From positions 16,173 through 80,172 of the forward strand of contig MHTK01000005.1 of assembly GCA_001824825.1 (NCBI GenBank): a stretch of DNA of 64,000 nt, written 5' to 3'. Under the pieces are notes generated by a model. The model did no database searches, was not told the DNA's origin, and saw only the letters and a program-made list of their open reading frames with translations. A program made the translations under genes and the position numbers. Origin of the DNA: Candidatus Vogelbacteria bacterium RIFOXYD1_FULL_46_19. Its GTDB lineage: Bacteria > Patescibacteriota > Minisyncoccia > Phycocordibacterales > XYD1-FULL-46-19. Positions 11,901 to 56,384 of this stretch are shown one piece after another (the stretch's first letter is position 1; every line of letters starts with the position of its first letter).

Positions 11901-12278
11901 GGGGATGATCGGCCTTGCCATTGATATGTTAGTTTATTCGTGCGTCCCGAGGGTGCTGGTCGCCTCGTAAATCACACCGGCAAAACTTAAGTGCAAAAAA
12001 CAGCACTGGTGCGGTGGTTTCACCGTACTCTCCAGCTTTCGCTTTAGCGTAATAAGCTGGTGTCGGACGAGCTTTTTCCTAACTGGCTCGCTCCCGGCAT
12101 AATAACCGTTGGGATAGGCAACTGGACTTGTTTCGCCCAGACGCCGAAACTTAGAAACTTTAACGCTTTGGGATTTTGCTCGTTTTATACCTAAAGCGTC
12201 GAGAACTTAAAACCAGCTACGGATGTAGACTCGCTTAAACCATATCTCTGCACGGGGGTTCGATTCCCCCCATCTCCA
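11901..12278 (+). ncRNA. ssrA: tmRNA (ssrA), standard one-piece; CCA not encoded
   Basis: The 5' acceptor GGGGAUG pairs with the 3' CAUCUCC, followed by discriminator A. The T-arm is GGGGG UUCGAUU CCCCC. An internal tag reading frame GCA AAA AAC … GCU UUA GCG UAA UAA (11993-12055) gives the tag AKNSTGAVVSPYSPAFALA with a double stop. The gene sits immediately downstream of smpB and is about 378 nt long. Confidence 0.85.
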
Positions 12279-12285
12279 CAATTAC

Positions 12286-24032: not shown

Positions 24033-24105
24033 GCGCGTGTAGCTCAGTTGGTAGAGCGCGGAGCTTATACCTCCGTGGTCCCAGGTTCGAGTCCTGGCAC
24101 GCGCA
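24033..24105 (+). tRNA. tRNA with anticodon UAU (reads AUA; Ile); CCA not encoded
   Basis: Cloverleaf: acceptor GCGCGUG/CACGCGC, D-arm GCUC-AGUUGGUA-GAGC, anticodon stem CGGAG/CUCCG with loop CUUAUAC (U33, A37), T-arm CCAGG-UUCGAGU-CCUGG, discriminator A. Confidence 0.8.
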
Positions 24106-24115
24106 CAAAATCTTA

Positions 24116-27923: not shown

Positions 27924-29549
27924 ATGAATAATAAACTTTCTCAAGTACAAAAAGCTTCACTGGCAACAGTTTTGGCTACCGTGGTGGCAACTTTATTAGT
28001 GCTTTCAGCTTCGGGCTGGGCTTTAAGTCGTCCGAGTTCGATCTTGGTAGTCTTCGACAGTTTTCATCAGTTATTGGCCCAAGTCAGTTCTATTGGTCAA
28101 TGTAAGTTAGCTAAACCACAGGTTCAAGTTATTCCTGGTTCTCAAACAGTGGCTCCTGGTGGAACAGTTGAATACACTCTCACTTTAACCAACAAAAATA
28201 ATAATGGGTGTGACCCCGCGACTTTTAAAATCGAGCCGTGGCTAAATCCTTTGTTTGGTCTTAAGGCCAGTCCAGCTTCTTTCACGGAGACTTTGGAGTC
28301 TGGAGCTAAAATTTCTCGGACTTTTAATCTAATGGTGCCAGACTGGTCACTGGAAGTTCCTATTATTTTCAATCAGCGGGCTTACAATATTGGCCGGCCG
28401 GTTGATTGGACCAGCGCCAACGCTCGGCTGACGGTTAAGGGTAAGCCTCTGGTGACTGGTTGTGTTTATCGGCCACCACTTCTGACGCTCACCCCTTTCA
28501 CTCAGACCAGCGCCGCGGGTGATACGGTTACTTATACTTACTCTTTAACGAATAATAATGACTTAAGCTGTGGTGAGACGGAATTTACCTTAAGACCGTG
28601 GGTGCCAGCGGATAGTAATTTGACGATTAATTCTTTTGCTGTCTCGGTGGCTGGCGGCACTACCGCTTCCGGTGAATTTGCAGTCAATTCTATTGCGGCC
28701 ACAACTTCCAACTCCTACCGCTTTAATATGGGGGCTTATTTTACAGCTACCTCCACTAGTGGCCTTCTTACTTACCGTGGCTTACAAGATGCTATTTATG
28801 AAGTTACCCCAACTATAGATGAAGCCACAACTACCGCTACTACGACGATTAGTTCCCCCTTGACCAATTGGGGGATTGAGTGTTTTGACCATAAAGATTA
28901 CGACGGGGACGGACTAGCCGGTTTTGATGATCCAGATTGTTTTGGTCCAAACTTGCGGCAAACTGATACCGACTATGGCTACACTTGGTTCGAACCGTCC
29001 CCCGCCAGCCGAATTATTTACGTGTCTAATTCCAGCGGGGATGACAGTTTTGACGGCTTGACACCGGAGCCGGTTCTTGGCACTAATCAGGGACCAAAAA
29101 AAACTATTTTAGCTGGCTACAATTTATTGCGTCCAGCCTCGGCGGACTGGCTCCTCCTCAAGCGGGGTGATACTTTTGTGGAGCCGGATATTTGGTTTAT
29201 AACTTCTGGACGTTTACCGACCGAACGAATTTTGGTGGCCAGCTATGGTCGTTCGATTCAACGGCCGATTTTAATCAACACCCGCTTCAGTCTTTTCCAG
29301 ACTCGTAATTTGGCTTTTGCCGGCTTAAACTTCTTTTCCACTGAAACTGACTTAGGTGTGCCCCAGATCGGAGCTATGGTTCCAGCTAAGGGCGGAATAA
29401 CTATTTGGGAAAGGGACACCCAGTCTAATAATATTTTGATTGAAAATAATATTTTTCATTTTGATCAGACTAATATTCTAAATAATACTACTCTGTGGAA
29501 AAATATTGTTCTTCGCCTGAACGTGTTTCGTCGACCGGTTAACTTTTAG
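27924..29549 (+). CDS. Secreted/membrane-anchored protein: 2× Ig-like 'NNN..CDPATF.I.PW' repeat domains + truncated right-handed beta-helix (pectate-lyase-fold) start
   Basis: An N-terminal TM anchor precedes repeats TLTNKNNNGCDPATFKIEPWLNPLFGL and SLTNNNDLSCGETEFTLRPWVPADS, which are shared with the two downstream paralogs. The C-terminus IYVSNSSGDDSFDGLTP…KTI…LLKRGDTF… is the canonical N-cap of pectin-lyase-fold beta-helix proteins. The ORF ends after about 3 rungs, so it may be truncated. Confidence 0.6.
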   Translation: MNNKLSQVQKASLATVLATVVATLLVLSASGWALSRPSSILVVFDSFHQLLAQVSSIGQCKLAKPQVQVIPGSQTVAPGGTVEYTLTLTNKNNNGCDPATFKIEPWLNPLFGLKASPASFTETLESGAKISRTFNLMVPDWSLEVPIIFNQRAYNIGRPVDWTSANARLTVKGKPLVTGCVYRPPLLTLTPFTQTSAAGDTVTYTYSLTNNNDLSCGETEFTLRPWVPADSNLTINSFAVSVAGGTTASGEFAVNSIAATTSNSYRFNMGAYFTATSTSGLLTYRGLQDAIYEVTPTIDEATTTATTTISSPLTNWGIECFDHKDYDGDGLAGFDDPDCFGPNLRQTDTDYGYTWFEPSPASRIIYVSNSSGDDSFDGLTPEPVLGTNQGPKKTILAGYNLLRPASADWLLLKRGDTFVEPDIWFITSGRLPTERILVASYGRSIQRPILINTRFSLFQTRNLAFAGLNFFSTETDLGVPQIGAMVPAKGGITIWERDTQSNNILIENNIFHFDQTNILNNTTLWKNIVLRLNVFRRPVNF

Positions 29550-29713
29550 TCGGAGGGATAAATAAGCAAGTTTTGAATCGGGAGATGGTATTGACCGATT
29601 TTATCACTAAGACCTGTTGATGACTTGGTGGCTAAGTGTTGATATATCCTTTATGATTAGCTGAAGCTAAGCTTTAGGCCTGGAGTTAATTTTTTAATAA
29701 TATTTCCGTAAAT

Positions 29714-32700
29714 ATGAAAAATTTAGATTTTGTTCGCAGTGCTTTTATTATAGTGGTTGGAGTGCTTTTGGTAGCGTTTTCCACTTGGTATCTGATGGAA
29801 AGAACGGAAATTTTGTCTGGGCCGCAGGCTCTCGTGGAGCGGTTGGTGGCACAAGTTAGCGGCTTAGGCAGTTGTGAACTTAAAAATCCAACCGTCAGCA
29901 TTACCCCCAGGCGGCAAGAGGGGGCGCCGGGCGAAAGATTAAAGTTTTCATTTACAGTTCGGAATAATAATCTTAACTGCGATCCGGCGACCTTTGATAT
30001 TAGACCCTGGCTTGATCCTCGTTATGGGTTATCAGCTGAGCCGCGTCTTCACGTTGAAACTTTAGCCGATGGAACATCGGTCACTCGTGACTTCATCATG
30101 ATTTCTCCCGCGACAGCCGAGGCTCGAGAAATAGTTTTTAACCAGAAGGCTGTTAATGTAAGCAGTGCTCGTCATTGGGGCAGTGCCGATGCTCGTTATG
30201 TGGTGATGGTGGAAGAAGTGGAGACTTGTGTGCGGCGTCACCCTTCGATATCGGTTCGACCGGCGACTAAAGCTGGTTTACCGGGTCAAATTGTTAATTA
30301 CCTATTTACCGTCACCAATAACAATAGTTCGGTTTGTGGGGAGTCTGATTTTCAGATTAAACCATATTTTTTTACCGACAGTGTTCTAAGTTCAGCTTCG
30401 ACTCCGATTATGACTATGAAAATAGCGGCCGGTGGACAAGTCTCAAAGACTTATTCGGTTAAATCTTCAGCCACGGCCAGTTTAGGTGATAGTGTACGGT
30501 TCAACCTCGGGGCTTATTCAAGCTTTGAAGGGGTTAACTATCGTCACAGCCAAGATCTATTTTATGTGGTGGGCACCAGTACCGTGCCGGTGTCAGCCCC
30601 ACCTGTGCCGGTTGAACCAGTTGAGCCGGTACCTTTACCAGAGCCACCATTAACTGAAGGTGAACCGATTAGCCTGGCTCTGATTACTATTGCAGCGGAC
30701 TCTTTAGTGAATAATGTTTATCGACTGGGAGTAAATATTGGTTACACAGCCAGTGCTGATACCTCTGTTCACTTCCGTAAAAATATAGTTAGGAACCCTG
30801 GTTTTGAAGTCTCTACTTTGCGTAGTAATTACGTCCTACATCATTTCCGAACCAAGGATGGTAATGGCAAATTGATTGGTGAAGGATCAATTCAAGCTAA
30901 TCAAGCGCAAGAGTTTTGCTGGAATACTGATTGGAGCAATAATGGCAACTTAGGGCAGCCGATCGGCACCTGGAATGACGCCGACTACGAAATAATGTCT
31001 GGCCCCCTTAAGGGTATAAAAGGGGTGGTGCAGGATTTCACTTATGAGGCTGATGCCTCCGGGGCTCCTCATTACACCTTTACCCTGGATAAAAATTTGC
31101 CCCGTCGCCCGGGTAATACTGATACGATCTTGACGGTGCGAAAAACTTTCGACGATTTTGATTCGACAGAAAAACGCCCTGGTAGCCCCGGTCAAAGGTC
31201 GCTACGACTGGAGCCGGAAACTGGGCCGGGAAAAACCACTCTTCTTAATCAATTATATGATGATGGCTCTTCAACTGTGGTTGAAGATGGTTACTCTGGC
31301 AAAAAAATGATTGTCGAGGGTCGGTGGCGCTTGTCCTTCTGGGCTAAGGCGGCTACTCCTGGTGATAAAGTATTTATTAGTTTTGTGCGACCGGGAACTC
31401 CCGGGTTCTTAAGTGAAGTAGTAACCTTGGATAAAGCCGGTTGGCAGGAATATGATATTCCGTTTACAGTGCCGGTGGGAACCGATGCTCGTCATACGAA
31501 CGCGGCTCCGCCAGTTGGTTTAAAAATTTCTTCTGTCCCGGACCAATATGACCGAGTTTATAAAGATTATCGTAATCGGAGCCAGATTTGGATCGACGAC
31601 GTTTATTTAGGGGAAGCCGATAATACCAACCCGACCGTTTTTAGCGATCAAGCGGTCGCAATGTTGAAAGAGTTGAATCCGGGAGTCTTGCGTTACTGGG
31701 GTGGTAACTTGGGTGAGCCCCTCGTCAATGTTCTGGGTTCGGAGTGGGGCCGAGGGATGTCACGATTTGCAACTCGGGCTAAAACGGGAAATGAATATTT
31801 CTCTTCACTTCCGGAAGTCTTGGATTTAGCCAAAGAAATTGACGCTGATCCGTGGTACGTAGTGCCGCCAACTTTGACTAAAGAGGAGTTAAAAGATTTG
31901 ACCACTTATGTTAACTCTCGAGCTGGCGAGTTTAATCGAATTTACTTAGAGTATGGTAATGAGATGTGGGGCACAGGGTGCGGATCCGATCCTTTTATGG
32001 GGGCCACGGTCGGTTTTCATTTGCCGAAGATGGCGGATGAGGCGTTTGAAGTGATGCGTGACGCGGGGTTGTCATCTAAGGTCAAGCTAATTATTGGTGG
32101 GCAGGCCGCCTGGGTCGGTCGTCAATCTCAAATTGAAGCTAATAGTGATAGTCATGATATAACGGCTATTGCTCCTTACTACACAATGATTGAAGAAGGG
32201 ATTACTAATCGGCCCACTCCAACCGTGGCTAATCTTCTGGATTACATTTATGCTAGCCCTTTGATCCGAAATAAAGCCAATAATAAAACCAACCAGTCTA
32301 GTAAAATTATTTCACAAGCTGGTCGGGAACCGGCTATTTATGAGATAAACTTTCATGATACCGGTAGTTTTCCACCGATTGCTCTAAAGAATAAAATTCT
32401 TACGGGTCAAGCTGGGGGTATTACCCTACCGCTACATATGTTGCACGCGATGAAAGAGAGTGGTATTCGTATTCAAACTGCTTTTTCCTTCTTACAAATT
32501 TACTTCCGAGACACCGGTGGAACTATGACTCGCTTGTGGGGTATTGCCCGGGACTTGGACAATATTCAGGCTTACCGCGGAACTGGTCTGGCTCTCTCGG
32601 TAGCTAACAAGGCGGTGTTTGGTGATTTGATCGGTAGTAACGTAGTTGGCGGCGGTTCGTGGTCTAGAACGATGGTGGATGAGTTTGATCGCAGTAAAAA

Positions 32701-32986
32701 AGCCGACCACGTCATCCCATACCTCCAATCCTTTGCTTTCAAAGATGGTAATCGTTATGGCCTAATCGTTTTCAATGTTCATCAGACGGCCACGATTAAA
32801 TCTAAGCTGGATTTACCGGGTGTCGGAGGAGCCGGGACGCGCTACCAGTTGTATCACCCTGATCCTCTGGCTACCAATGAAAGAAGTGTGAATCTGACGA
32901 TTCAAGAAGTGCCGGTAACTATTGATGAAATTACTGAGTACGAATTCCCACCGCATTCGATTACTAGCTTCACTTGGAGTGAGTAA
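29714..32986 (+). CDS. Large secreted multidomain protein: N-terminal Ig-like repeats + beta-sandwich + C-terminal GH51-like (clan GH-A) glycoside hydrolase domain
   Basis: A signal/TM region at the N-terminus is followed by two CDPATFDIRPW-type repeats. LRYWGGNLGE matches GH51 lRfPGGn. YLEYGNEMWGTGCG matches the GH51 acid/base motif GNE(N/M)WGCGG. AIYEINFHDTG is the nucleophile motif. A C-terminal beta-sandwich follows. The protein is 1090 aa. Confidence 0.65.
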   Translation: MKNLDFVRSAFIIVVGVLLVAFSTWYLMERTEILSGPQALVERLVAQVSGLGSCELKNPTVSITPRRQEGAPGERLKFSFTVRNNNLNCDPATFDIRPWLDPRYGLSAEPRLHVETLADGTSVTRDFIMISPATAEAREIVFNQKAVNVSSARHWGSADARYVVMVEEVETCVRRHPSISVRPATKAGLPGQIVNYLFTVTNNNSSVCGESDFQIKPYFFTDSVLSSASTPIMTMKIAAGGQVSKTYSVKSSATASLGDSVRFNLGAYSSFEGVNYRHSQDLFYVVGTSTVPVSAPPVPVEPVEPVPLPEPPLTEGEPISLALITIAADSLVNNVYRLGVNIGYTASADTSVHFRKNIVRNPGFEVSTLRSNYVLHHFRTKDGNGKLIGEGSIQANQAQEFCWNTDWSNNGNLGQPIGTWNDADYEIMSGPLKGIKGVVQDFTYEADASGAPHYTFTLDKNLPRRPGNTDTILTVRKTFDDFDSTEKRPGSPGQRSLRLEPETGPGKTTLLNQLYDDGSSTVVEDGYSGKKMIVEGRWRLSFWAKAATPGDKVFISFVRPGTPGFLSEVVTLDKAGWQEYDIPFTVPVGTDARHTNAAPPVGLKISSVPDQYDRVYKDYRNRSQIWIDDVYLGEADNTNPTVFSDQAVAMLKELNPGVLRYWGGNLGEPLVNVLGSEWGRGMSRFATRAKTGNEYFSSLPEVLDLAKEIDADPWYVVPPTLTKEELKDLTTYVNSRAGEFNRIYLEYGNEMWGTGCGSDPFMGATVGFHLPKMADEAFEVMRDAGLSSKVKLIIGGQAAWVGRQSQIEANSDSHDITAIAPYYTMIEEGITNRPTPTVANLLDYIYASPLIRNKANNKTNQSSKIISQAGREPAIYEINFHDTGSFPPIALKNKILTGQAGGITLPLHMLHAMKESGIRIQTAFSFLQIYFRDTGGTMTRLWGIARDLDNIQAYRGTGLALSVANKAVFGDLIGSNVVGGGSWSRTMVDEFDRSKKADHVIPYLQSFAFKDGNRYGLIVFNVHQTATIKSKLDLPGVGGAGTRYQLYHPDPLATNERSVNLTIQEVPVTIDEITEYEFPPHSITSFTWSE

Positions 32987-33014
32987 TATAGACTAAAAAT
33001 CCGAGGCTTAAAAA

Positions 33015-33052
33015 TCAACCCCGCCGTAGCAACAGTTACGGCGGGGTTGATT
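33015..33052 (+). terminator. Hairpin terminator-like element after 29714..32986 (tcaaccccgccgta gcaacagt tacggcggggttga)
   Basis: A perfect 14-bp stem with a weak U-tract. Confidence 0.45.
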
Positions 33053-33187
33053 GATATCCTTTATCATCCTAGTCTGTCTGCGGCTGGATAAATTTTGACA
33101 CCAGCTACTCTTTGTGGTTAGTATGAGGGGTAGTGGTCGTTTCGATGACACAGGAGTTGGCTGCTGACTAATCTAATTGTTGAGTTA

Positions 33188-33225
33188 TTGAGGACGTATG
33201 AAAGTGAACTTTCATACGTCCTCAA
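33188..33225. promoter_or_regulatory. Perfect 18-bp inverted repeat (ttgaggacgtatgaaagt gaac tttcatacgtcctcaa) ~95 nt upstream of the third paralog
   Basis: A long perfect palindrome with a 4-nt loop. It is a candidate operator or RNA structure. There is no flanking T-tract. Confidence 0.35.
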
Positions 33226-33315
33226 CTGATAATGACGGACTCAGATCCATATAGGTCCAGGGCTTGACCCTGGGGTTTATACTTTTTACTTGCTTTTTAA
33301 CCAGATTTTAACCCT

Positions 33316-36150
33316 ATGATAATTAATAGCAGAACTGGCCGCATAACCCCTTTTCTCTTGATCGGAGGAACATTTTTAATAGTCTTAGTTGTCGTTGTTG
33401 GTTTGACCCCGACCAGAACTTCCGCCGAAGCTTGCGTGCGGCAAAATCCAACGATTGAGGTGACCCCCTCGGTGCAGTACGGCGAGCCGGGTCGGATTTT
33501 AAATTATTCTTATCGCTTAACCAATAATAATAGCGCTGGTTGTGGTGTTGAAACCTTTGAAATTAAGCCTTACTTTTTGCCGGGCAGTATTGTGGAATCA
33601 GGTTATGGTGAAGCGAAATTGGATCGGGTGGCGCCGGGGGCGACTGATGATGGGCGTTACCAGATTAAGTCGGCCGCCAATGCTCCTCTGGGCACCAAAG
33701 TTAGATTTAATATTGGGGCTTACCTGGTGGCTGATGGGGTGACCTATAAAACTACTAAAGATTTGTTTTACCAAATCGGTACTCCCACCACACCGCTACC
33801 TGGTGAAAACCCTGACCCGGAGCCAGGCCCCGATCCGGAAGTACCTCCTCCAGTACCACCGACCGCGACGGGGACTGTGGTTTCGTTGTTAAACCAGTCC
33901 CTTTTAAACGATGCTTCTAGATTGGGTATAAATATTGGTTATACAGCTGGTTTTGATACGGCGGTTCACTTTCGGAAAAATATTGTTCATAATCCCGGCT
34001 TTGAAGAAGCCACTTTGCGGAGTAACTACACTTTGAAAAATGGCGGGGCCGAGGGTGGTCTGGCGGCCAATCAAGTGCAGGAATTTTGCTGGCAAACGGA
34101 ATGGGGTACTGGTTCGGACGGTAAACACTTCAAGGGGCAAGGCTTGGGCGCTTGGGCCGGCGGCGATTATGAGTTTATTGCAGGGCCGGCATGGTTAAAG
34201 GATGTAAAAGGAAAAGTCACTGCTTTTACTTTTAAAGCCGATAAAAACGGGGCGTCGCGTTATACTTTTACGTTGGATAAAAATTTACCTAAACGACCTG
34301 ATTACTTGAATACGATTTTACAGGTACGTAAAACTTTTGATAACTTTGACCGCAGCCAAAAAAGGCCAGGCAGCCCCGGGGATCGTTCACTTAAGCTGGA
34401 CTCCAACCGGGGGGACGGCGGGGATTATCCTTTTTTGCAGTACTTTGACGACGGGGCTAGAACTAAAGTGGAAGACGGTTACGCCGGTAAAATGTTGGTA
34501 GTGGAGGGACCTTGGCGCTTGTCGGTGTGGGCCAAAGCCGAACAGCCGGGCGATAAGCTGTTTGTTAGCTTTTCCCGCCAAGGTTTGCCAGCCTTCTTGG
34601 ATAAAGAAATTACGCTAACCGATACTAATTGGCGCGAGTATACTTTTAATTTTATGGTGCCGGCTGGCCTCGATGCTCGCAACGTATCGGCCAATATCTT
34701 GGTTCAACCGGTGAGTCTAAAAATTGCCACTCGCACCCATACTTACTCTAAAAACCGCGGTTCGGTTTGGATCGACGACCTTTACTTAGGTGAAGCGGAC
34801 AACACTAATCCCACTGTCTTTAGCGATCAAGCTGTCAAAATGTTGAAAGAATTAAACCCTGGCGTTTTGCGCTACTGGGGTGGTAACTTGGGTGAACCAA
34901 TTGAAAACGTGCTGGGCTCGGAGTGGGAACGGGGGACCTCTAACTTTTCCACCGAAGCCCGCGAAAATAACACTTTATATTTTTCCTCCCTACCCGAAAT
35001 CCTAGATTTAGCCAAAGCCGTAGATGCCGACCCGTGGTACGTGGTACCACCAACTTTAACGACTCAGGAATTAGAAGATTTAACAGATTACGTTAATTTC
35101 CGAGTGGGTGAGTTTGATCGGATTTATTTGGAGTACGGTAATGAGATGTGGGGGACAGGGTGTGACGACCCATTTAAGGGGGCGACTGTTAGTTTTAATC
35201 TACCGACTTTGGCGGATGAAGCCTTTCGAGTAATGAAAGGAGCCGGCCTTTCGAGCAAGGTTAAACTGGTGATCGGGGGGCAAGCCGCTTACGTGGACCG
35301 ACAAAATCAAATTGAACAGGGTAGTGATACTCATAATCTGACGGCTATTGCTCCTTACTACCAAATGAATGGGCGGGCCAACTCAACTGTTGCTTCTTTG
35401 CTCGGCCACTTATACGCCGACCCGCTAGTGCGAAATATTCCGGGTAGTAAAATAAACCAGTCGGCGTCCATTGTAAGAGTGGCTGGTCGGGAACCAGCTA
35501 TTTATGAAATTAACTTTCATGACACTGGCAACCAACCGGCGATTGCCCTAAAAAATAAAATTATCACCGGTCAGGCGGGAGGTATTACTTTACCCCTTCA
35601 GATGTTGCACGCCATGAAGGGGAGTGGTATTCGTGCTCAAACCGCGTTTACTTTTTCCCAGTTTGCTTTCCGTGACACCGGGGGTAATATGACCCGTTTG
35701 TGGGGGGTGGTACGCGATTTAGACAATGGGCGGGCTTTTCGTGGGACAGGTTTAGCTCTGGTGGTAGCCAACAAAGCTATTTTTGGGGATTTGATTAAGG
35801 CAGAAGTTAGTGGCGGCCGAACTTGGGTTCAGAGTTTACCTGACGAGGTTGAAAAAGATCGATCCGCCAACCACACTGTTCCTTATTTGCAGACTTTTGC
35901 TTTTAAAGATGGTAATCGCTATGGGCTCATCGTCTTTAACCTCCATCAAACCGAAACTCTTAAAACTAAACTCGATCTACTGGGTACCGGTGGCTCGGGC
36001 CGTAAGTATTGGCTCTACCACCCTGACCCCCTAGCTAATAACGAAAGGAATATTCAGTTAAGAGTGGAAGAAGCCCCAGTTACTATTAATGAAAGTACTG
36101 AGTATGAATTTCCGCCCCACTCGATTACGAGTTTGGTTTGGAACGAGTAG
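33316..36150 (+). CDS. Paralog of 29714..32986: secreted Ig-like-repeat + GH51-like glycoside hydrolase (944 aa)
   Basis: The C-terminal ~600 aa are about 75% identical to the upstream gene (VWIDDLYLGEADNTNPTVFSDQAVKMLKELNPGVLRYWGGNLGEP…YLEYGNEMWGTGCDDPF…AIYEINFHDTGN…). The N-terminus has one CGVETFEIKPYF repeat and a Pro-rich linker. Confidence 0.65.
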   Translation: MIINSRTGRITPFLLIGGTFLIVLVVVVGLTPTRTSAEACVRQNPTIEVTPSVQYGEPGRILNYSYRLTNNNSAGCGVETFEIKPYFLPGSIVESGYGEAKLDRVAPGATDDGRYQIKSAANAPLGTKVRFNIGAYLVADGVTYKTTKDLFYQIGTPTTPLPGENPDPEPGPDPEVPPPVPPTATGTVVSLLNQSLLNDASRLGINIGYTAGFDTAVHFRKNIVHNPGFEEATLRSNYTLKNGGAEGGLAANQVQEFCWQTEWGTGSDGKHFKGQGLGAWAGGDYEFIAGPAWLKDVKGKVTAFTFKADKNGASRYTFTLDKNLPKRPDYLNTILQVRKTFDNFDRSQKRPGSPGDRSLKLDSNRGDGGDYPFLQYFDDGARTKVEDGYAGKMLVVEGPWRLSVWAKAEQPGDKLFVSFSRQGLPAFLDKEITLTDTNWREYTFNFMVPAGLDARNVSANILVQPVSLKIATRTHTYSKNRGSVWIDDLYLGEADNTNPTVFSDQAVKMLKELNPGVLRYWGGNLGEPIENVLGSEWERGTSNFSTEARENNTLYFSSLPEILDLAKAVDADPWYVVPPTLTTQELEDLTDYVNFRVGEFDRIYLEYGNEMWGTGCDDPFKGATVSFNLPTLADEAFRVMKGAGLSSKVKLVIGGQAAYVDRQNQIEQGSDTHNLTAIAPYYQMNGRANSTVASLLGHLYADPLVRNIPGSKINQSASIVRVAGREPAIYEINFHDTGNQPAIALKNKIITGQAGGITLPLQMLHAMKGSGIRAQTAFTFSQFAFRDTGGNMTRLWGVVRDLDNGRAFRGTGLALVVANKAIFGDLIKAEVSGGRTWVQSLPDEVEKDRSANHTVPYLQTFAFKDGNRYGLIVFNLHQTETLKTKLDLLGTGGSGRKYWLYHPDPLANNERNIQLRVEEAPVTINESTEYEFPPHSITSLVWNE

Positions 36151-36177: not shown

Positions 36178-36217
36178 AAAATTCCCCCGACAGGCTTTAA
36201 GCCTGTCGGGGGAATTC
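36178..36217. terminator. Strong bidirectional terminator (aaaattcccccgacaggc tttaa gcctgtcgggggaatt)
   Basis: A perfect 17-bp stem with A/T runs on both sides. Confidence 0.7.
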
Positions 36218-36226
36218 TAGTTGGTT

Positions 36227-36373
36227 TTAGGGTTTCCGATTATTGCGGATAGCTGGCCGGAAGTTCATATTTTTGGTGGGGCGGAGCGACTTGGCCGCTT
36301 TAAAGCCGGATGGGGTACGGAAAGCTGGGTTGCCATCTTGTTTGCCACTTTTGATACGATTACTGTTTTTCAT
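36227..36373 (-). CDS. Candidate small basic protein (48 aa; MKNSNRIKSGKQDGNPAFRTPSGFKAAKSLRPTKNMNFRPAIRNNRKP)
   Basis: The ORF ends at the bidirectional terminator. No SD is present, and it is below the ORF-track cutoff, so this is speculative. Confidence 0.2.
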   Translation of the reverse strand: MKNSNRIKSGKQDGNPAFRTPSGFKAAKSLRPTKNMNFRPAIRNNRKP

Positions 36374-38985: not shown

Positions 38986-40092
38986 ATGGCTTTTAGCTTG
39001 TTTAAAAAGCAAAACAGTGTTATCGGCCTAGACATCGGCTCCTCGTCGGTGAAGGTCATTCAGTTGCGCAAAGATAAAGGCCGGGTCATTTTGGAAACTT
39101 ATGGTGAACTTTCCACCGGACCTTACGCCGGTAAAGCGGTGGGTCAGGCTGTAACGTTGGCACCGGAACAATTGGCTGTCCTCATTACCGACTTATTTAA
39201 AGAAGCTAATATTACCACCAAAGTGGGCGGGGTAGCCATTCCACTTCGTTCGAGCTTACTGGTTACCATCAACGTGCCGGAGTTGGAGGAAGATAAGCTA
39301 GCCCAAATGGTACCCTTGGAGGCCCGCAAATACGTACCAGTGCCGATTTCTGAAGTGATGTTGGACTGGTCGGTCATTCCTGATATGCACCGGGAGCTAA
39401 TTGATGATAATCAAACAGCGCCGGAAGCTGGCAACAAAGTGACCCCGAAGCAAATCGAAGTGTTGATTGTGGCTATTCACAAAGACACTATTAAACAGTT
39501 CCAGGAAATTAGTCGGCAGACCGACATCGACACTAAATTTTTAGAAATCGAAACTTTCAGTGCTATGCGGTCCTCACTCTCCGGTGATTTTGGGGCGTCG
39601 GTCATTGTTGATCTGGGAGCCTCGACCACTAAAACGGTGATTGTTGACTATGGGGTAGTGCGGATGTCGCACACCATCAATAAAGGTGCTCAAGATGTGA
39701 CTTTGGCCATTGCTCGTTCGATGGACTTGTCTTTTATTAAGGCCGAAGAGGTAAAACGCAAAGTTGGCATTATTGAAAAATTTGGTGATAAGGATATTGG
39801 CGAGACAATCAGTCCGATTGTGGAATACATCTTTAACGAAATTAGCCAAGTAATGATAGAATATCAGAAGAAGCACAGTCGCAGTATTGAAAAAGTTATT
39901 ATGATCGGTGGCGGAGCGATGCTTAAAGGTTTGTTTGATTTAGCGAAAGAGAATATTTATGCGCCGGTGTATCTGGGGACGCCGTTTGACCGTGTTGAAG
40001 CCCCAGCTTTTTTAGAAAATATTTTAAAGGAGGTGGGCCCGGGCTTTGCGGTTTCGATCGGCTTGGCCTTGCGGGGTTTAGAAGAAATGTAG
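38986..40092 (+). CDS. pilM: Type IV pilus assembly protein PilM (actin-like ATPase)
   Basis: MAFSLFKKQNSVIGLDIGSSSVKVIQL… is the PilM N-terminus. The actin/FtsA fold is evident throughout. It is the first gene of the pil operon. Confidence 0.85.
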   Translation: MAFSLFKKQNSVIGLDIGSSSVKVIQLRKDKGRVILETYGELSTGPYAGKAVGQAVTLAPEQLAVLITDLFKEANITTKVGGVAIPLRSSLLVTINVPELEEDKLAQMVPLEARKYVPVPISEVMLDWSVIPDMHRELIDDNQTAPEAGNKVTPKQIEVLIVAIHKDTIKQFQEISRQTDIDTKFLEIETFSAMRSSLSGDFGASVIVDLGASTTKTVIVDYGVVRMSHTINKGAQDVTLAIARSMDLSFIKAEEVKRKVGIIEKFGDKDIGETISPIVEYIFNEISQVMIEYQKKHSRSIEKVIMIGGGAMLKGLFDLAKENIYAPVYLGTPFDRVEAPAFLENILKEVGPGFAVSIGLALRGLEEM

Positions 40093-40119
40093 ACGTTCGC
40101 TTTTAATACTTAAATTGTT

Positions 40120-40719
40120 ATGGCAATTCAAAATCAATCATCGTTCATTCCCAAAGATGGCTCCTTCAAAAAGCCTCGCCGCGAAAGTATGATGGGAATT
40201 TTAATGTTGGTGTCACTTGTCGTTTTAGGCTTATCCTTACTGTTGTTTGCCGGCTCTTACGGCTACTGGTATCTCTTAGACCGTCAAGTAAATGCGCCTT
40301 GCGATGGCGAGGGTGGTGCCTGCGGTCTTAAAGCGACGGTGGATAATATCAAGCACGAGCTCGACTTAAAGCAAATTGTGCGCTACAACCGCTTGGATAA
40401 AAAAATGAAAGTGGCTCAAGGGCTGATCGACGGTCACACCACTTTGGTACCTTTGTTTGATGTTTTAGAACGCTTAACAATTCATAATGTGCGTTATAAC
40501 AAGTTTTCGGTGGAAGATGGGACGACGGTAACGATCGAAGGCACGGCTCGCGAGTATGAGGATTTGGCCGCCCAGCTGCGGGTTTATAAAGATAGTAATT
40601 CTATTAAAGAAGCGGTGTTTTCTGGGCTAGGCCTAGATGACGACAGCTTGATTACTTTTAAGCTCCAACTGGTGCCTGTGTCGTCTTTGTTAACCTTTTC
40701 TACTAATTTAAATAATTAA
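40120..40719 (+). CDS. pilN: PilN-like pilus assembly protein
   Basis: A single N-terminal TM, a 199-aa length, and a position after pilM. Confidence 0.6.
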   Translation: MAIQNQSSFIPKDGSFKKPRRESMMGILMLVSLVVLGLSLLLFAGSYGYWYLLDRQVNAPCDGEGGACGLKATVDNIKHELDLKQIVRYNRLDKKMKVAQGLIDGHTTLVPLFDVLERLTIHNVRYNKFSVEDGTTVTIEGTAREYEDLAAQLRVYKDSNSIKEAVFSGLGLDDDSLITFKLQLVPVSSLLTFSTNLNN

Positions 40720-40722
40720 ATT

Positions 40723-41319
40723 ATGCTGGTCCAGATTTTACTACCAATTCTGTTCTTGCTGACGGCGGTCGGGGTGTATTTTGGTCTCACTGATCCGGTG
40801 ATTTACGGCGGGGGTTTGTTCAGTAGTGGCGACAGTGGGATTGTGGATTTAAGAGAGGAGAAAAAAACTTTGACGCAGGCGATGGAGGATGCCAAGGCTC
40901 TACAAGAGCGGGCGGCCGAGCTCGAGCGCCAGGCGGCTAGTATCTCGCCTGATAATATTACTCGCCTGGACAATTTCCTGCCTGACTCGGTGGATGACAT
41001 TCAGCTAGTGGTGGATTTAAACACGATTGCTAGTCGGTCCGGTATGGGCTTGGGCGAGGTTAAGCTTGGTGCCGACCAAACTAGACGCCGGTCAGTCGAG
41101 CGGGAAACTGGCCAAGCGGTGCCGGCGGTAGAAACCGTGGCCGTCTCCTTTACGGTAGACGGTAGTTATGGCCAGTTGAAAGCTATGATCTCGGATTTGG
41201 CTAAAAGTTTACGAATCTTGGAAGTCAAACAGTTGAAGTTTGCTTCGGTGGCGGAAGATGGTTCGGAGACTGGTCGTTACAAGTATGAAATTACGGTGGA
41301 AACTTACTGGCTAAAGTAA
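40723..41319 (+). CDS. pilO: PilO-like pilus assembly protein
   Basis: An N-terminal TM, a coiled-coil region (…KKTLTQAMEDAKALQERAAELERQAAS…), and a position after pilN. Confidence 0.6.
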   Translation: MLVQILLPILFLLTAVGVYFGLTDPVIYGGGLFSSGDSGIVDLREEKKTLTQAMEDAKALQERAAELERQAASISPDNITRLDNFLPDSVDDIQLVVDLNTIASRSGMGLGEVKLGADQTRRRSVERETGQAVPAVETVAVSFTVDGSYGQLKAMISDLAKSLRILEVKQLKFASVAEDGSETGRYKYEITVETYWLK

Positions 41320-41324
41320 TTACT

Positions 41325-41753
41325 ATGAATCAAAAGAAAGTACTCATAAATACTGTGGTTGCCATCCTCTTGGTCGGAGCGGTGGTCGCTGGCTATATTT
41401 ATCTTTCGGGAGGCGATGAAGAGGCTGAACGCATTGGCCTTGACTCGGTCGTCGGGGAAGAGGCGTCAGTTGTTCCTGGTGGCACCTCCGAATTTTTACT
41501 CCTATTGGAGTCGCTGAAAGGAGTGGATCTATCCGGACAAATTTTTACCAACGCTCTTTTTTCGCGTGAACTGGTGAACTTTACCACTATTGTGCCTTTT
41601 CGTCCGCAGGGTCGGGCTAACCCTTTTGCGCCTTTAGGGACGGCTAATCTATCGAGCCAGGCACCTGACATCGAGCAGGGTACCACCACGGTAAGTTCTT
41701 TTTTGAATGAAGAAACGCCAGTAGTGGACTTTTCGACTGATGTGCAGTTTTAG
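41325..41753 (+). CDS. Pilus-assembly accessory protein (PilP-like), hypothetical
   Basis: An N-terminal TM, a 142-aa length, and a position in the pilMNO(P) cluster. Confidence 0.45.
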   Translation: MNQKKVLINTVVAILLVGAVVAGYIYLSGGDEEAERIGLDSVVGEEASVVPGGTSEFLLLLESLKGVDLSGQIFTNALFSRELVNFTTIVPFRPQGRANPFAPLGTANLSSQAPDIEQGTTTVSSFLNEETPVVDFSTDVQF

Positions 41754-41785
41754 TTCTAGGGACGGAATTACCTTTTAAATATTAT

Positions 41786-43366
41786 ATGACTGATCTGTCT
41801 TCTATTCCCGTAGCACAACTTAATGGCAATCGGATTTCTTTCGACATTTTGAAATTTATTCCGGAAGACGCCGCTGGCTACTATAAATTTATCCCGCTTG
41901 ATTTTAAAGACGGGGTTCTTCAGGTGGGAATGGTGGATCCGGACAATATTGAAGCCCGCGATGCTTTGCAGTTTATCGCGTCCAAAAGTAATTTACCGTT
42001 TAAAATATTTTTAATCTCCGAAGAAAATTTTACCGAAGCTTTGAAAAGTTATGAAGCCTTAGGCGGGCAAGTAGATGAAGCCCTGGATGCCTTTGCGGCC
42101 GAGATTGAAGCCGACAAGAAAGACTCCACCGAGCTTTTAAAGGACGGTGAGCAGAAAGCTAGTAGCAAGACCCCGAACATTATTGAAGAAGCGCCGGTGA
42201 CCAAAATTGTGGGGGTTATTTTACAGCACGCTACTGAGGGTAATGCTTCCGACATCCATATCGAGCCCACCACCGAACAGGTTCGAGTCCGGTTTCGAGT
42301 GGACGGTGTTCTTTATACCAGTTTGTTTTTACCGAAAGCGGTGCAGGAGGCGGTGGTAGCCCGCATAAAAATTTTGACCAATATGAAATTGGATGAAAAG
42401 CGCAAACCGCAAGACGGCCGCTTTTCGGCCAAAATTGACGGCCGAAAGATCGATTTTCGCGTGTCGACTTTCCCGACCTACTTTGGTGAGAAGGTGGTGC
42501 TGCGTATTTTGGATCCGGACAAAAAGCTGATCTCGCTGGCTTCGGTGGGCTTTGTCGGCGAACAGCTTGCTCAAATAGATGCGGTGATTAAAAAGCCCCA
42601 CGGTCTCGTTCTTCTAACCGGTCCGACCGGCTCGGGTAAGACGACCACTTTATACGCTATGCTAAACGCTTTAGATAAGGAGCAGGCCAATGTGGTGTCT
42701 TTAGAGGACCCAATCGAGTACGACATTGCCGGCATTAATCAGTCGCAAGTTCAGGCGGATATTAATTACACTTTTGCTAGTGGTCTGCGTTCTATTTTAC
42801 GCCAAGATCCCGATATTATCATGGTGGGTGAAATTCGTGATAAAGAAACGGCGACACTTGCCATCCAAGCTTCTCTAACCGGCCACTTAGTGTTTTCCAC
42901 TATCCACACTAATAGCGCTATTGGGGTGGTGCCGCGCCTGATTGATATGGGAGTGGATCCATTTTTAATTCCGCCGACTTTAGTGATGGCTATTGGTCAA
43001 CGTTTGGTGCCGCTCTTGTGTCCGGAAGCTCGCAATCCGGTCCCGGTGGAAGGCAGTATTAAAATGATGATTGATAAGCAGTTATCGGATCTGCCGGAAA
43101 TATTCCGCCGCGAAATTATGATTCCAGATATGGTTTACGAGGCTAAGTCAACCGCCAGCTGCCCCTCGGGTACCAAAGGCCGAACGGCAGTCTTTGAGTT
43201 TATCACTATGGACCGTGACCTGGAGCACCTAATCTTAAAAAGCCCAAGTGAAGACGATATTTACAATCACGTGCGGGCCAAAGGTTTTACGTCGATGAAA
43301 GAAGACGCGATGCGCAAGGCTTTTGCTGGCCAAATTTCTTTCACTGAGGTTAATAAATTTAATTAA
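41786..43366 (+). CDS. pilB: Type IV pilus assembly ATPase PilB (GspE family)
   Basis: Walker A (VLLTGPTGSGKTTTLYAML), an Asp box, a His box, and an N-terminal GspII-like domain. Confidence 0.9.
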   Translation: MTDLSSIPVAQLNGNRISFDILKFIPEDAAGYYKFIPLDFKDGVLQVGMVDPDNIEARDALQFIASKSNLPFKIFLISEENFTEALKSYEALGGQVDEALDAFAAEIEADKKDSTELLKDGEQKASSKTPNIIEEAPVTKIVGVILQHATEGNASDIHIEPTTEQVRVRFRVDGVLYTSLFLPKAVQEAVVARIKILTNMKLDEKRKPQDGRFSAKIDGRKIDFRVSTFPTYFGEKVVLRILDPDKKLISLASVGFVGEQLAQIDAVIKKPHGLVLLTGPTGSGKTTTLYAMLNALDKEQANVVSLEDPIEYDIAGINQSQVQADINYTFASGLRSILRQDPDIIMVGEIRDKETATLAIQASLTGHLVFSTIHTNSAIGVVPRLIDMGVDPFLIPPTLVMAIGQRLVPLLCPEARNPVPVEGSIKMMIDKQLSDLPEIFRREIMIPDMVYEAKSTASCPSGTKGRTAVFEFITMDRDLEHLILKSPSEDDIYNHVRAKGFTSMKEDAMRKAFAGQISFTEVNKFN

Positions 43367-56108: not shown

Positions 56109-56113
56109 TCTTG

Positions 56114-56184
56114 TTGCGGGGGCCGGAATCGAACCGGCGTCTGGAGGTTATGAGCCTCCCGAGGTACCTCTCCTCTACCCCGCG
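56114..56184 (-). tRNA. tRNA-Met (CAU), initiator type (C1·A72 mismatch); CCA not encoded
   Basis: Revcomp CGCGGGG-UA-GAGG-AGAGGUA-CCUC-G-GGAGG-CUCAUAA-CCUCC-AGACG-CCGG-UUCGAUU-CCGG-CCCCGCA-A. It resembles E. coli tRNA-fMet (CGCGGGG…GGCCCCCGCAACCA). Confidence 0.8.
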
Positions 56185-56272
56185 TTGCGCATTTAATATA
56201 TCACACAAACGGTTTTGGCGCAATTAGTTAATTGCCAAAAACGCAAAAATATGTATAAATTTAAAGGTAATT

Positions 56273-56345: not shown

Positions 56346-56384
56346 CAAGACATTTACATGAGTTTCTGTTAGAATGTCTCACGT

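What the first reader, a model, noticed from the sequence alone, without database searches (positions are those of the whole stretch)
27924..36150. Tandem family of three large secreted proteins: shared Ig-like 'CDPATF.I.PW' repeats fused to a truncated beta-helix or to GH51-like glycosidase barrels
All three consecutive genes start with a signal/TM anchor. All three carry one or two copies of an ~90-aa module of the form (T/S)(L/V)(T/R)N(N/K)NN..C(D/G)(P/E)(A/T)TF(K/D)I(E/R)PW.

The first gene (27924..29549) ends in the N-cap of a pectate-lyase-type right-handed beta-helix. It stops after about three rungs, so it may be truncated or a pseudogene.

The other two (29714..32986 and 33316..36150) carry C-terminal halves that are about 75% identical over ~600 aa. 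These halves hold the clan GH-A catalytic signatures LRYWGGN, EYGNEMWGTGC (compare the GH51 GNENWGCGG acid/base block) and YEINFH (nucleophile). A beta-sandwich follows. The whole pattern is typical of GH51 alpha-L-arabinofuranosidase-like enzymes.

A pair of recently duplicated, roughly 1000-aa secreted glycosidases is unexpected in an otherwise minimal, CPR-like genome. One hypothesis is that they target a host envelope polysaccharide, for example arabinogalactan, peptidoglycan-linked glycans or exopolysaccharide, for attachment or feeding by an episymbiont. The N-terminal repeats have no obvious named family.
Basis: partly seen in the sequence, partly recalled or inferred. Interest (0 to 1): 0.8.

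Follow-up and report, generated by a model that had tools for sequence, protein, structure and literature searches.

The report
Surface-anchored GH51-like glycosidase pair in CPR bacterium
Two neighbouring genes of a tiny groundwater bacterium (Candidatus Vogelbacteria) encode membrane-anchored, outward-facing sugar-cutting enzymes from a large, uncharacterized family distantly related to GH51 arabinofuranosidases, next to a truncated third gene sharing their stalk; this is a sound but fairly ordinary enzyme prediction whose substrate is unknown.

Summary
There are three consecutive + strand ORFs: g1 27924-29549, g2 29714-32986 and g3 33316-36150. Each starts with a hydrophobic anchor and carries one or two ~120-aa two-cysteine Ig-like modules.

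g2 and g3 are paralogs. Each continues with a Pro-rich linker, a CBM4-like jelly roll, a (β/α)8 barrel and a C-terminal β-sandwich.

The acid/base (g3 E610, g2 E750) aligns with AbfA E175. The nucleophile (g3 E731, g2 E877) sits on β7. Both are about 99% conserved in 188 family domains.

The jelly roll is inserted where fungal long GH51 has its CBM4-like domain. The family is large (940 representatives at 50% identity), unannotated, and only ~15% identical to GH51, so it is a sister family and the substrate is open.

g1's β-helix is truncated; homologs run 300-450 aa further. The duplication is old (dS saturated) and under purifying selection. GHs are common in CPR genomes. The host-envelope idea is untested.

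The parts
27924..29549 (+). g1 (OHA59807.1, 541 aa). It comprises an N-terminal anchor, Ig-like modules A and B, an Asp-rich linker and a truncated right-handed β-helix.
   Evidence: ORF. It is 100% identical to the deposited Vogelbacteria protein. Truncation shown. Model.
28092..28817 (+). g1 Ig-like modules A (aa 57-176) and B (aa 177-298).
   Evidence: Module alignment. The AF2 model shows β-sandwiches at 66-171 and 186-295 with pLDDT about 80-90. Foldseek hits tandem Ig/FnIII-like proteins such as RbmA and integrin legs. TIGR01451 DUF11-type repeat scores 24.9 bits.
28980..29546 (+). g1 β-helix remnant (aa ~353-541), consisting of the N-cap and roughly the first three rungs only.
   Evidence: It is 40% identical to P0039 residues 183-421 of 864 and 39% identical to P0040 residues 157-350 of 705. 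Four of the six homologs carry Pfam PF13229 Beta_helix. tblastn finds no continuation anywhere in the window.
29714..32986 (+). g2 (OHA59808.1, 1090 aa). It comprises an anchor, Ig-A, Ig-B, a Pro-rich linker, a CBM4-like jelly roll, a (β/α)8 barrel and a β-sandwich.
29864..30583 (+). g2 Ig-like modules A (aa 51-168) and B (aa 169-290).
31961..31963 (+). g2 Glu750, the predicted general acid/base (EYGNE).
   Evidence: Paralog alignment with g3 E610. Coordinates checked.
32342..32344 (+). g2 Glu877, the predicted catalytic nucleophile (IYEINFH).
   Evidence: Paralog alignment with g3 E731. Coordinates checked.
33013..33052 (+). An 18-bp GC-rich hairpin 27 nt after the g2 stop, likely a terminator. 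A promoter-like TTGACA-18-TAGTAT follows at 33095-33124, ahead of g3.
   Evidence: These are consensus scans only.
33316..36150 (+). g3 (OHA59809.1, 944 aa). It comprises an anchor, Ig-B, a Pro-rich linker, a CBM4-like jelly roll, a (β/α)8 barrel and a β-sandwich.
33424..33789 (+). g3 Ig-like module B (aa 37-158).
   Evidence: Model strands 46-154 with pLDDT about 75-88.
33874..33978 (+). g3 aa 187-221: an N-terminal strand that probably joins the C-terminal sandwich, plus barrel strand β1 (RLGINIGY; R202, G204 and N206 conserved).
   Evidence: DSSP of the model. Only seven barrel strands lie after residue 494, so β1 must be here (inference). Conservation. Same topology as MgGH51 (PMC7604909).
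33979..34794 (+). g3 aa 222-493: a CBM4-like β-jelly roll inserted between barrel β1 and α1. It starts with the near-invariant NPGFE.
   Evidence: The family profile hits CBM4 structures 1gui (1e-7) and 3jxs (1.8e-5). Five family members hit Pfam CBM_4_9. The model is all-β in this region. Conservation.
34795..35775 (+). g3 aa 494-820: the remainder of the (β/α)8 catalytic barrel.
35143..35145 (+). g3 Glu610, the predicted general acid/base, located directly after β4.
   Evidence: It aligns with AbfA N174-E175. It is Glu in 185 of 187 family domains.
35506..35508 (+). g3 Glu731, the predicted nucleophile on β7. The E-x-N motif matches the GH51 DEWN motif.
   Evidence: DSSP strand 726-734. It is Glu in 186 of 188 family domains. 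Residue-level superposition was not available.
35776..36147 (+). g3 aa 821-944: the C-terminal β-sandwich.
   Evidence: The family profile matches the GH51 C-terminal domain (3ug3 residues 407-502). The model is all-β with pLDDT above 90. UniRef names the protein 'Alpha-L-arabinofuranosidase C-terminal domain-containing protein'.
36184..36212 (.). A perfect GC-rich hairpin (CCCCCGACAGGC-TTTAA-GCCTGTCGGGGG) 34 nt after the g3 stop, likely a terminator.
   Evidence: Sequence read directly. Coordinates checked.

Best explanation
g2 and g3 are paralogous cell-surface retaining glycoside hydrolases.

Architecture. Each is held in the membrane by an N-terminal hydrophobic anchor, which could be a signal-anchor or a cleaved signal peptide. 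The enzyme head is spaced from the cell by one (g3) or two (g2) lineage-specific, two-cysteine Ig-like modules and a Pro-rich linker. The head is a clan GH-A (β/α)8 barrel with a CBM4-like jelly roll inserted after strand β1 and a C-terminal β-sandwich. This is the topology of 'long' GH51 enzymes.

Catalysis. It should proceed by the classical double-displacement mechanism. Glu610 in g3 (Glu750 in g2) is the acid/base after β4, and Glu731 in g3 (Glu877 in g2) is the nucleophile on β7.

Family. The proteins belong to a large, uncharacterized family whose nearest characterized relatives are the GH51 α-L-arabinofuranosidases, at only about 15% identity. The substrate is therefore some extracellular glycan. 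An α-L-arabinofuranoside or β-D-galactofuranoside side chain is the leading guess, and a β-glucan or hemicellulose backbone is the alternative. The released sugars presumably feed the fermentative cell.

g1. It carries the same anchor and Ig-A/Ig-B stalk, fused to the first rungs of a right-handed β-helix whose remainder has been deleted. It is most likely a decaying or stalk-only paralog.

What is shown and what is inferred. Shown: the ORFs, the paralogy, the fold, homology to GH51, alignment of the acid/base residue, family-wide conservation of both glutamates, the g1 truncation, and purifying selection. Inferred: extracellular location, the identity of the nucleophile at residue level, the insertion topology, the substrate and the physiological role.
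For: Sequence homology:
- The family profile hits only GH51 arabinofuranosidases (3ug3, 3s2c and 4atw at E about 1e-10, in two stretches covering the barrel and the C-terminal sandwich) and CBM4 modules in the PDB.
- hhalign of the family against G. stearothermophilus AbfA gives 93% probability and E 3.4e-7. It pairs R519 with R69, N524 with N74, N609-E610 with N174-E175, and Y681 with Y246. The AbfA sequence was validated against 1pz3.

Structure:
- The AF2 model has pLDDT 84.6 and pTM 0.78.
- Foldseek's top 32 hits are all GH51 (E 1.2e-21, TM 0.67), with GH79 next at 1e-12.
- E610 follows β4 and E731 lies on β7.

Conservation and selection:
- Across 188 family domains, E610 is conserved in 185/187, E731 in 186/188, R519 in 188/188 and Y681 in 186/188.
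- Between g2 and g3, dN in the barrel is 0.19 while dS is saturated, which indicates purifying selection on both copies.

Topology and context:
- MgGH51 has a CBM4-like domain inserted after its 36-residue N-terminal segment (PMC7604909). The strand count in the g3 model is consistent with the same arrangement.
- Each protein has an N-terminal hydrophobic helix and two invariant cysteines per Ig module.
- A Bacteroidota homolog lies beside a SusC-like receptor and an AraC-type regulator.

g1: truncation shown.
Against: - No Pfam or NCBIfam GH model reaches its cutoff on g2 or g3. The best is ArfA at 15.6 bits against a cutoff of 625.
- hhalign could not align the nucleophile region to AbfA. 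The E731 assignment therefore rests on the predicted structure, on conservation and on the E-x-N motif.
- Some GH51 sugar-binding residues are not conserved. AbfA H244 corresponds to an Ala that is conserved in the family. N74 corresponds to Gln in most family members. The counterpart of E29 is unclear.
- No sugar-catabolic genes flank the cluster.
- There are no expression or biochemical data.
Confidence: 0.8

Rival explanations
1. g2 and g3 are bona fide GH51 exo-α-L-arabinofuranosidases that strip arabinose side chains from plant-derived arabinoxylan, arabinan or arabinogalactan in the aquifer. This is a more specific version of the best explanation.
Confidence: 0.3
2. They are endo- or exo-acting β-glycanases, for example β-glucanases or other hemicellulases, or β-D-galactofuranosidases, from a separate clan GH-A family. 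In this reading the CBM4-like domain binds a glycan chain.
For: GH51 contains non-arabinofuranosidase members, and a distant GH51 relative hydrolysed lichenan. CBM4 modules typically bind β-glucan or xylan chains (PMC5725463). Some Araf-binding residues are not conserved. The family is expanded in polysaccharide-degrading phyla such as Hydrogenedentota, Chloroflexota, Planctomycetota and Bacteroidota.
Against: There is no direct evidence for any substrate. The MgGH51 CBM4-like domain showed no binding cleft, so the insert may be structural rather than glycan-binding.
Confidence: 0.3
3. The enzymes attack a host cell-envelope glycan, such as arabinogalactan, wall teichoic-type glycans or exopolysaccharide, to help an episymbiont attach or feed.
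For: The proteins appear to be surface-displayed on a stalk. The CPR paralogs form a 100%-bootstrap clade with homologs from DPANN archaea, which are also ultrasmall presumed episymbionts. Type IV pilus genes lie about 3 kb downstream.
Against: The evidence is circumstantial only. The host is unknown. The family is mostly found in free-living polysaccharide degraders. CPR genomes commonly carry hemicellulose-type GHs that are interpreted as serving fermentative carbon scavenging. The proximity of the pilus genes is not evidence of functional linkage.
Confidence: 0.12
4. The heads are non-catalytic, lectin-like binding domains built on a dead GH scaffold.
For: No GH profile reaches threshold. 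The stalk and Ig-module architecture resembles that of adhesins.
Against: Both catalytic glutamates, the preceding Asn, R519 and Y681 are about 95-100% conserved across 188 family domains and are intact in both paralogs. The barrel is the most strongly constrained region (dN 0.19).
Confidence: 0.05

Closest known systems
GH51 α-L-arabinofuranosidases, 'long' form (e.g. Meripilus giganteus MgGH51, PDB 6zps; plant ASD1-type)
   Different: Identity is 10-11%. The insert is about 270 aa here against 169 aa in MgGH51. GH51 sequence models do not recognise g2 or g3. Here the enzyme carries an N-terminal membrane anchor, Ig-like stalk modules and a Pro-rich linker. The specificity is unknown.
Bacterial GH51 α-L-arabinofuranosidases (T. 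maritima 3ug3; G. stearothermophilus AbfA 1pz3)
   Different: Identity is about 15-16%. The bacterial enzymes are intracellular, about 500 aa, hexameric and lack the CBM4-like insert. The H244 counterpart is Ala. The nucleophile region is not alignable by sequence.
GH148 (EngU β-glucanase; PMC5725463)
   Same: Both are clan GH-A barrels with a CBM4-type module embedded within the catalytic domain and a C-terminal region of unknown family. Both were undetectable with standard family HMMs.
   Different: In EngU the CBM4 sits between β4 and α4, that is, between the two catalytic glutamates (motifs INNEN and VTEYN), and the similarity is to GH42. Here the insert precedes both glutamates (EYGNE and IYEIN, 121 residues apart) and the similarity is to GH51. 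The resemblance is analogous, not homologous.
GH79 β-glucuronidases/heparanases (e.g. 5bwi, 3vny)
   Different: There is no sequence-profile hit at E ≤ 1, and the structural scores are lower than those for GH51.
DUF11-type / CARDB-like Ig-fold repeats of prokaryotic surface proteins (NCBIfam TIGR01451; Pfam DUF11, DUF7507, DUF7927)
   Same: Both share the '...Y.ltvtNnG...' β-sandwich repeat signature. g1 scores 24.9 bits against a cutoff of 24 on TIGR01451. There are weak Pfam hits to DUF7507, DUF7927 and DUF11. The predicted fold is Ig-like.
   Different: The match is marginal and covers about 20 residues. The two invariant cysteines and the C(D/G)..TF.I.PW motif are specific to this small clade. 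A profile search of 5.8 billion proteins found no other carriers; only P0001 shares the module.
Right-handed parallel β-helix proteins (Pfam PF13229 Beta_helix), for g1
   Same: The g1 C-terminus is 28-44% identical to the N-terminal part of six β-helix proteins, four of which carry PF13229. It also shares the preceding Cys/Asp-rich DxDGDG motif.
   Different: g1 ends after about three rungs and lacks 300-450 aa, including the conserved HNGW, RGxG and C-terminal motifs. It is uniquely fused to the Ig stalk.

Membership tests
Clan GH-A (4/7 superfamily) retaining glycoside hydrolases | (β/α)8 barrel fold | tested here: met
Clan GH-A (4/7 superfamily) retaining glycoside hydrolases | General acid/base Glu in an Asn-Glu motif at the end of β4 | tested here: met
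   N609-E610 follows strand 603-607. It aligns with AbfA N174-E175. Glu is conserved in 185 of 187 family domains.
Clan GH-A (4/7 superfamily) retaining glycoside hydrolases | Nucleophile Glu at the end of β7 | tested here: inconclusive
   E731 lies in model strand 726-734 and is conserved in 186 of 188 family domains. No residue-level superposition or sequence alignment to a known nucleophile could be obtained.
GH51 | Significant sequence similarity of the catalytic domain to family members (CAZy criterion; dbCAN GH51 HMM) | not testable with these tools
   No CAZy or dbCAN library is available. As proxies, Pfam GH51-related models gave no hit on 39 family members and NCBIfam ArfA gave 15.6 bits against a cutoff of 625. 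The profile-to-PDB hit to GH51 was E 1e-10.
GH51 | Recognition by curated GH51 family models (Pfam Alpha-L-AF_C PF06964 / ASD1_dom PF22848; NCBIfam ArfA) | tested here: not met
   nothing at or near the cutoffs for g2 or g3. Three distant relatives carry precomputed PF22848 hits.
GH51 | Barrel plus β-sandwich that contains both chain termini; the long form has a CBM4-like insert after the N-terminal segment | tested here: inconclusive
   The C-terminal sandwich matches the GH51 C-terminal domain. The insertion topology is inferred from the strand count in the model and compared with the MgGH51 description. Coordinates could not be inspected.
GH51 | Arabinofuranose-binding residues (AbfA E29, R69, N74, N174, H244, Y246) | tested here: inconclusive
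   The counterparts of R69, N174 and Y246 are conserved. N74 is kept in g2 and g3 but is Gln in most of the family. H244 corresponds to Ala. The E29 counterpart is not identified.
GH51 | α-L-arabinofuranosidase (or other demonstrated) activity | not testable with these tools
   This requires an enzyme assay.
GH148 | CBM4 inserted between β4 and α4, with catalytic motifs INNEN and VTEYN and GH42-like similarity | tested here: not met
   In g2 and g3 the jelly roll precedes both glutamates, the motifs are EYGNE and IYEIN, and the similarity is to GH51.
CBM4 / CBM_4_9 | β-jelly-roll with CBM_4_9 sequence signature | tested here: inconclusive
   The family profile hits CBM4 structures (1gui at 1e-7) and 5 of 39 members hit Pfam CBM_4_9. 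g2 and g3 themselves do not. The domain is about 270 aa with a large internal insertion. Glycan binding is untested.
DUF11-type repeat (TIGR01451) | Score at or above the curated cutoff | tested here: inconclusive
   g1 scores 24.9 bits against a cutoff of 24 and passes. g2 scores 16.2 and fails. g3 has no hit.
Right-handed β-helix (PF13229), for g1 | Multiple parallel β-helix rungs recognised by the family model | tested here: not met
   g1 itself has no PF13229 hit. Only about three rungs remain, and homology is to the N-terminal part of PF13229-bearing proteins.

The most novel reading that the evidence does not exclude
g2, g3 and P0001 would represent a CPR-specific branch of a not-yet-classified glycoside hydrolase family, a would-be new GH family sister to GH51. 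The branch would have been exchanged between ultrasmall episymbiotic bacteria (CPR) and archaea (DPANN). It would be mounted on a lineage-specific disulfide-bonded Ig stalk, and it would act on a host or partner cell-envelope glycan rather than on plant debris, making it a dedicated tool of the episymbiotic lifestyle.
Probability: 0.12. Interest if true: 0.7.

Novelty: new variant of a known kind. Interest (0 to 1): 0.4.

Why it matters
If the prediction holds, it assigns a fold, a mechanism and catalytic residues to a large protein family that current domain databases leave blank. The family has at least 940 clusters at 50% identity. It is spread over Hydrogenedentota, Chloroflexota, Planctomycetota, Bacteroidota, DPANN and one CPR lineage.

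Biochemical characterization would probably found a new CAZy family or a deep GH51 subfamily, and it could reveal a new specificity.

For CPR biology, it adds a concrete, testable example of a surface-displayed enzyme on a lineage-specific stalk, and a possible case of CPR-DPANN gene sharing.

It does not overturn anything. Glycoside hydrolases in CPR genomes are already well documented.

Tried and rejected
- Single-sequence Pfam, NCBIfam and PDB searches gave no usable GH hit. Profiles were needed.
- hhalign of the family against the second half of AbfA failed to align the nucleophile region (probability 1.3%).
- A profile of the six Ig modules found no further carriers among 5.8 billion proteins. 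It was also too divergent for the metagenome DNA-pattern scan.
- The metagenome scan with g3 found only five distant (~32%) relatives and no new CPR-clade members.
- Neighbours of the DPANN-labelled homologs were not diagnostic of domain.
- The Rfam scan found no riboswitch or regulatory RNA near the cluster.
- GH148 membership was considered because of its embedded CBM4. It was rejected on insertion position, motifs and nearest family.
- A frameshift explanation for the g1 truncation was rejected. No β-helix homology exists in any frame downstream or elsewhere in the window.
- Recent horizontal transfer of the cluster was considered. The GC content of the region (0.45-0.48) is not distinguishable from the rest of the window.
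- Foldseek on the g1 model reported only the Ig modules, not the β-helix remnant.
Full report
**1. What is in the sequence**

- g1: 27924-29549, 541 aa
- g2: 29714-32986, 1090 aa
- g3: 33316-36150, 944 aa

[quoted passage not shown] The CPR guess is therefore right.

Each protein begins with its most hydrophobic 19-residue stretch at residues 10-31. The models predict these stretches as helices.

The motif N(N/K)N..C(D/G)..F.(I/L).P(W/Y) occurs five times. The units are about 120 aa long, not about 90. They fall into two types:
- A type: g1A and g2A, 41% identical.
- B type: g1B, g2B and g3B, 32-45% identical.
- A versus B is 22-25% identical.

Two cysteines are invariant in every copy.

The paralogy is clear:
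- g2 and g3 are 60% identical over 932 aa. By region this is 75.5% in the barrel, 72% over the last 450 aa and 67.6% over the last 596 aa.
- g1 shares its first 280 aa with g2 at 38% identity.
- LRYWGGN, EYGNEMWGTGC and YEINFH are present in both g2 and g3.

**2. What g2 and g3 are**

Single-sequence searches were nearly blank. Pfam gave no GH hit. NCBIfam gave a faint ArfA hit, 15.6 bits against a cutoff of 625. The PDB search gave nothing.

A search of 5.8 billion proteins returned 37 homologs, almost all 'hypothetical' with no Pfam domain. Their alignment (A1) shows an invariant EYGNE-type block and a near-invariant YE.N block.

A profile of this alignment, searched against all PDB sequences, hit only two kinds of protein:
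- GH51 α-L-arabinofuranosidases (3ug3, 3s2c and 4atw at E about 1e-10). The match came in two stretches, one in the barrel including GNE and one in the C-terminal sandwich.
- CBM4 modules (1gui at 1e-7, 3jxs at 1.8e-5), matching the region before the barrel.

The AlphaFold model of g3 built on A1 is confident, with mean pLDDT 84.6 and pTM 0.78. Its layout is:

| g3 residues | Feature |
|---|---|
| 13-29 | helix (anchor) |
| 46-154 | β-sandwich (Ig-like module) |
| 157-184 | disordered Pro-rich linker |
| 187-493 | all-β region |
| about 494-820 | β/α barrel |
| 825-943 | β-sandwich |

Structure comparison points to GH51:
- Foldseek against the PDB returns GH51 as its top 32 hits (E 1.2e-21, TM 0.67 on the target, 16% identity). 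GH79 follows at 1e-12, then GH44 and GH30.

**3. Catalytic residues**

I wrote out G. stearothermophilus AbfA from memory and validated it against 1pz3 (502 of 502 residues aligned, two substitutions). Its acid/base is E175 and its nucleophile is E294; this is established knowledge for GH51.

hhalign of the family against AbfA gives 93% probability and E 3.4e-7 over g3 498-688 and AbfA 48-253. The residue pairs are:

| g3 | AbfA |
|---|---|
| R519 | R69 |
| N524 | N74 |
| N609-E610 | N174-E175 |
| Y681 | Y246 |
| A679 | H244 |

In the model, E610 follows β4 (IYLEY-GNE) and E731 lies on β7 (AIYEINF). The E-x-N motif mirrors the GH51 DEWN motif.

E731 is therefore an inference from position and conservation.

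Conservation across 188 domains of the wider family is near-total:
- R519: 188/188
- N609: 178/187
- E610: 185/187
- Y681: 186/188
- E731: 186/188
- N733: 180/188

**4. Topology**

After residue 494 the model has only seven barrel strands. The missing β1 is most simply the short strand in the conserved RLGINIGY segment (R202, G204, N206). It is preceded by a long strand (187-197) that would join the C-terminal sandwich.

On that reading, the 270-aa CBM4-like jelly roll (222-493), which opens with the near-invariant NPGFE, is an insertion between β1 and α1.

This is exactly how the fungal long GH51 enzyme MgGH51 is described. [quoted passage not shown]

The shared insertion point strengthens the specific link to GH51. 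For g3, however, it remains an inference from the model.

**5. Family status**

An exhaustive HMM search of 1.84 billion representatives found 940 proteins at E ≤ 1e-30. Most are about 720 aa.

In species-representative genomes there are 255 relatives. The best 80 come from Hydrogenedentota (often several copies per genome), Chloroflexota, Planctomycetota, Bacteroidota, Ignavibacteria, Sumerlaeota and a few DPANN archaea. None come from other Patescibacteria.

Specificity is open:
- A CAZy 'GH51_dist' protein was active on lichenan (PMC6442616).
- Some Araf-binding residues differ. The H244 counterpart is Ala, and the N74 counterpart is Gln in most members.

GH148, another GH-A family with an embedded CBM4, was considered and rejected. 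Its insert lies between the catalytic glutamates, its motifs differ, and its similarity is to GH42 (PMC5725463).

**6. The stalk and g1**

The Ig-like modules are β-sandwiches in both models. They match tandem Ig/FnIII-like proteins.

g1 just passes the DUF11-type repeat model TIGR01451 (24.9 bits against a cutoff of 24). 'No named family' is therefore only roughly true.

In this exact form the module is confined to g1, g2, g3 and P0001. P0001 is the closest homolog, at 49% identity, and it has an anchor, one module (NNNIGNCQTEFVIRPW) and a Pro/Gln linker.

After its two modules, g1 has a disordered Asp-rich linker and then about 190 aa homologous to the start of right-handed β-helix proteins. 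Four of its six homologs carry PF13229.

All six homologs continue for 300-450 aa through conserved rungs and a conserved C-terminal motif. g1 stops mid-rung, and no remainder exists in any frame of the window. g1 is a truncated gene: either a decaying paralog or a stalk-only protein.

**7. Evolution and context**

The g2/g3 duplication is old. pS is 0.70-0.81, so dS is saturated. dN rises from 0.19 in the barrel to 0.53 in the Ig module. Both copies are under purifying selection, and 'recently duplicated' is wrong.

In NJ trees with 100 bootstraps:
- g2 pairs with g3 (93%).
- The pair then joins P0001 (100%).
- That trio then joins four DPANN-labelled archaeal sequences (100%).

P0001 sits between a serine recombinase and a tyrosine integrase.

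In the window the cluster lies between housekeeping genes (ECF sigma factor, FtsH, TruB, RecG) and tRNA-Ser, an MFS transporter, ComF and type IV pilus genes. There is no sugar-catabolic operon and no compositional anomaly.

An 18-bp hairpin follows g2 and a good promoter-like site precedes g3. A perfect hairpin follows g3. No structured RNA was found.

A Bacteroidota homolog lies in a PUL-like arrangement, with an AraC-type regulator, a SusC-like receptor and an unknown 433-aa ORF. This is consistent with glycan processing.

**8. Assessment**

The surrounding narrative is weaker:
- GHs are routine in CPR genomes. PMC5581439 surveyed more than 2000 CPR genomes and placed this one in its CPR phylogeny.
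- The duplication is ancient.
- The host-envelope idea has no evidence for or against it.

What is modestly new is threefold. A sizeable, unannotated GH family gets a fold, a mechanism and catalytic residues. A rare CPR branch of it is mounted on a lineage-specific Ig stalk. That branch groups with DPANN homologs.

I rate the interest as moderate (0.4) and the novelty as a new variant of a known kind.

Noticed in passing
window 29714-36150; loci L001, L003, L006, L031, L068: In NJ trees the CPR paralogs plus P0001 form a 100%-bootstrap clade with homologs from four MAGs labelled DPANN archaea (Nanoarchaeota, Pacearchaeota, uncultured archaeon). The best named homolog of g1's β-helix (P0040) also comes from a DPANN (Diapherotrites) MAG. 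This may be gene sharing between ultrasmall bacteria and archaea. The archaeal identity of the contigs was not verified independently.
   Followed up: partly
loci L012, L016, L020, L035, L041, L042, L074: Several Chloroflexota loci carry two family paralogs side by side, so tandem pairs recur in this family outside CPR. Many Hydrogenedentota genomes have three or more copies.
   Followed up: no
L026:35-7577: A Bacteroidota homolog lies directly downstream of an AraC-family regulator, a SusC-like TonB-dependent receptor and an unannotated 433-aa ORF that could be SusD-like. This is a PUL-like layout.
   Followed up: partly
L001:87-10189: The closest homolog, P0001, is flanked by an N6/N4 DNA methyltransferase, a ResIII helicase, a large serine recombinase and a tyrosine integrase. 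This suggests it sits in or next to a mobile or defence island.
   Followed up: no
window 24033-24106: ARAGORN and Rfam both call a tRNA-Ile with anticodon TAT (UAU). This is uncommon in bacteria, which usually decode AUA with a lysidine-modified CAU tRNA. Two tRNA-Met(CAT) genes lie at 56113-56346.
   Followed up: no
window 36227-36373 (-) and 36184-36212: A 48-aa, very basic ORF (MKNSNRIKSGKQDGNPAFRTPSGFKAAKSLRPTKNMNFRPAIRNNRKP) converges on g3. It has a 10/12 promoter-like site at 36411-36382. The perfect hairpin at 36184-36212 lies between the two genes and could terminate both.
   Followed up: no
L003:4617-7463: The Nanoarchaeota homolog starts MLNKKGVSDVITTVLLILIVLAAIG..., which looks like an archaeal class III (pilin-type) signal peptide rather than a Sec signal. 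This judgement is by eye.
   Followed up: no
window 28869-28979 (g1 aa ~316-352): A Cys/Asp-rich motif (ECFDHKDYDGDGLAGFDDPDC) precedes the β-helix. It is shared with P0039 and P0040, and a similar CNDLIDNDGDGF occurs in L006. It resembles Ca-binding DxDxDG-type motifs.
   Followed up: no
window 38986-43366: A type IV pilus gene set (PilM, PilN, PilB-type ATPase) lies about 3 kb downstream of the cluster, beyond tRNA-Ser, an MFS transporter and a ComF-like gene.
   Followed up: no
window 11901-12281: A tmRNA gene with tag peptide AKNSTGAVVSPYSPAFALA.
   Followed up: no
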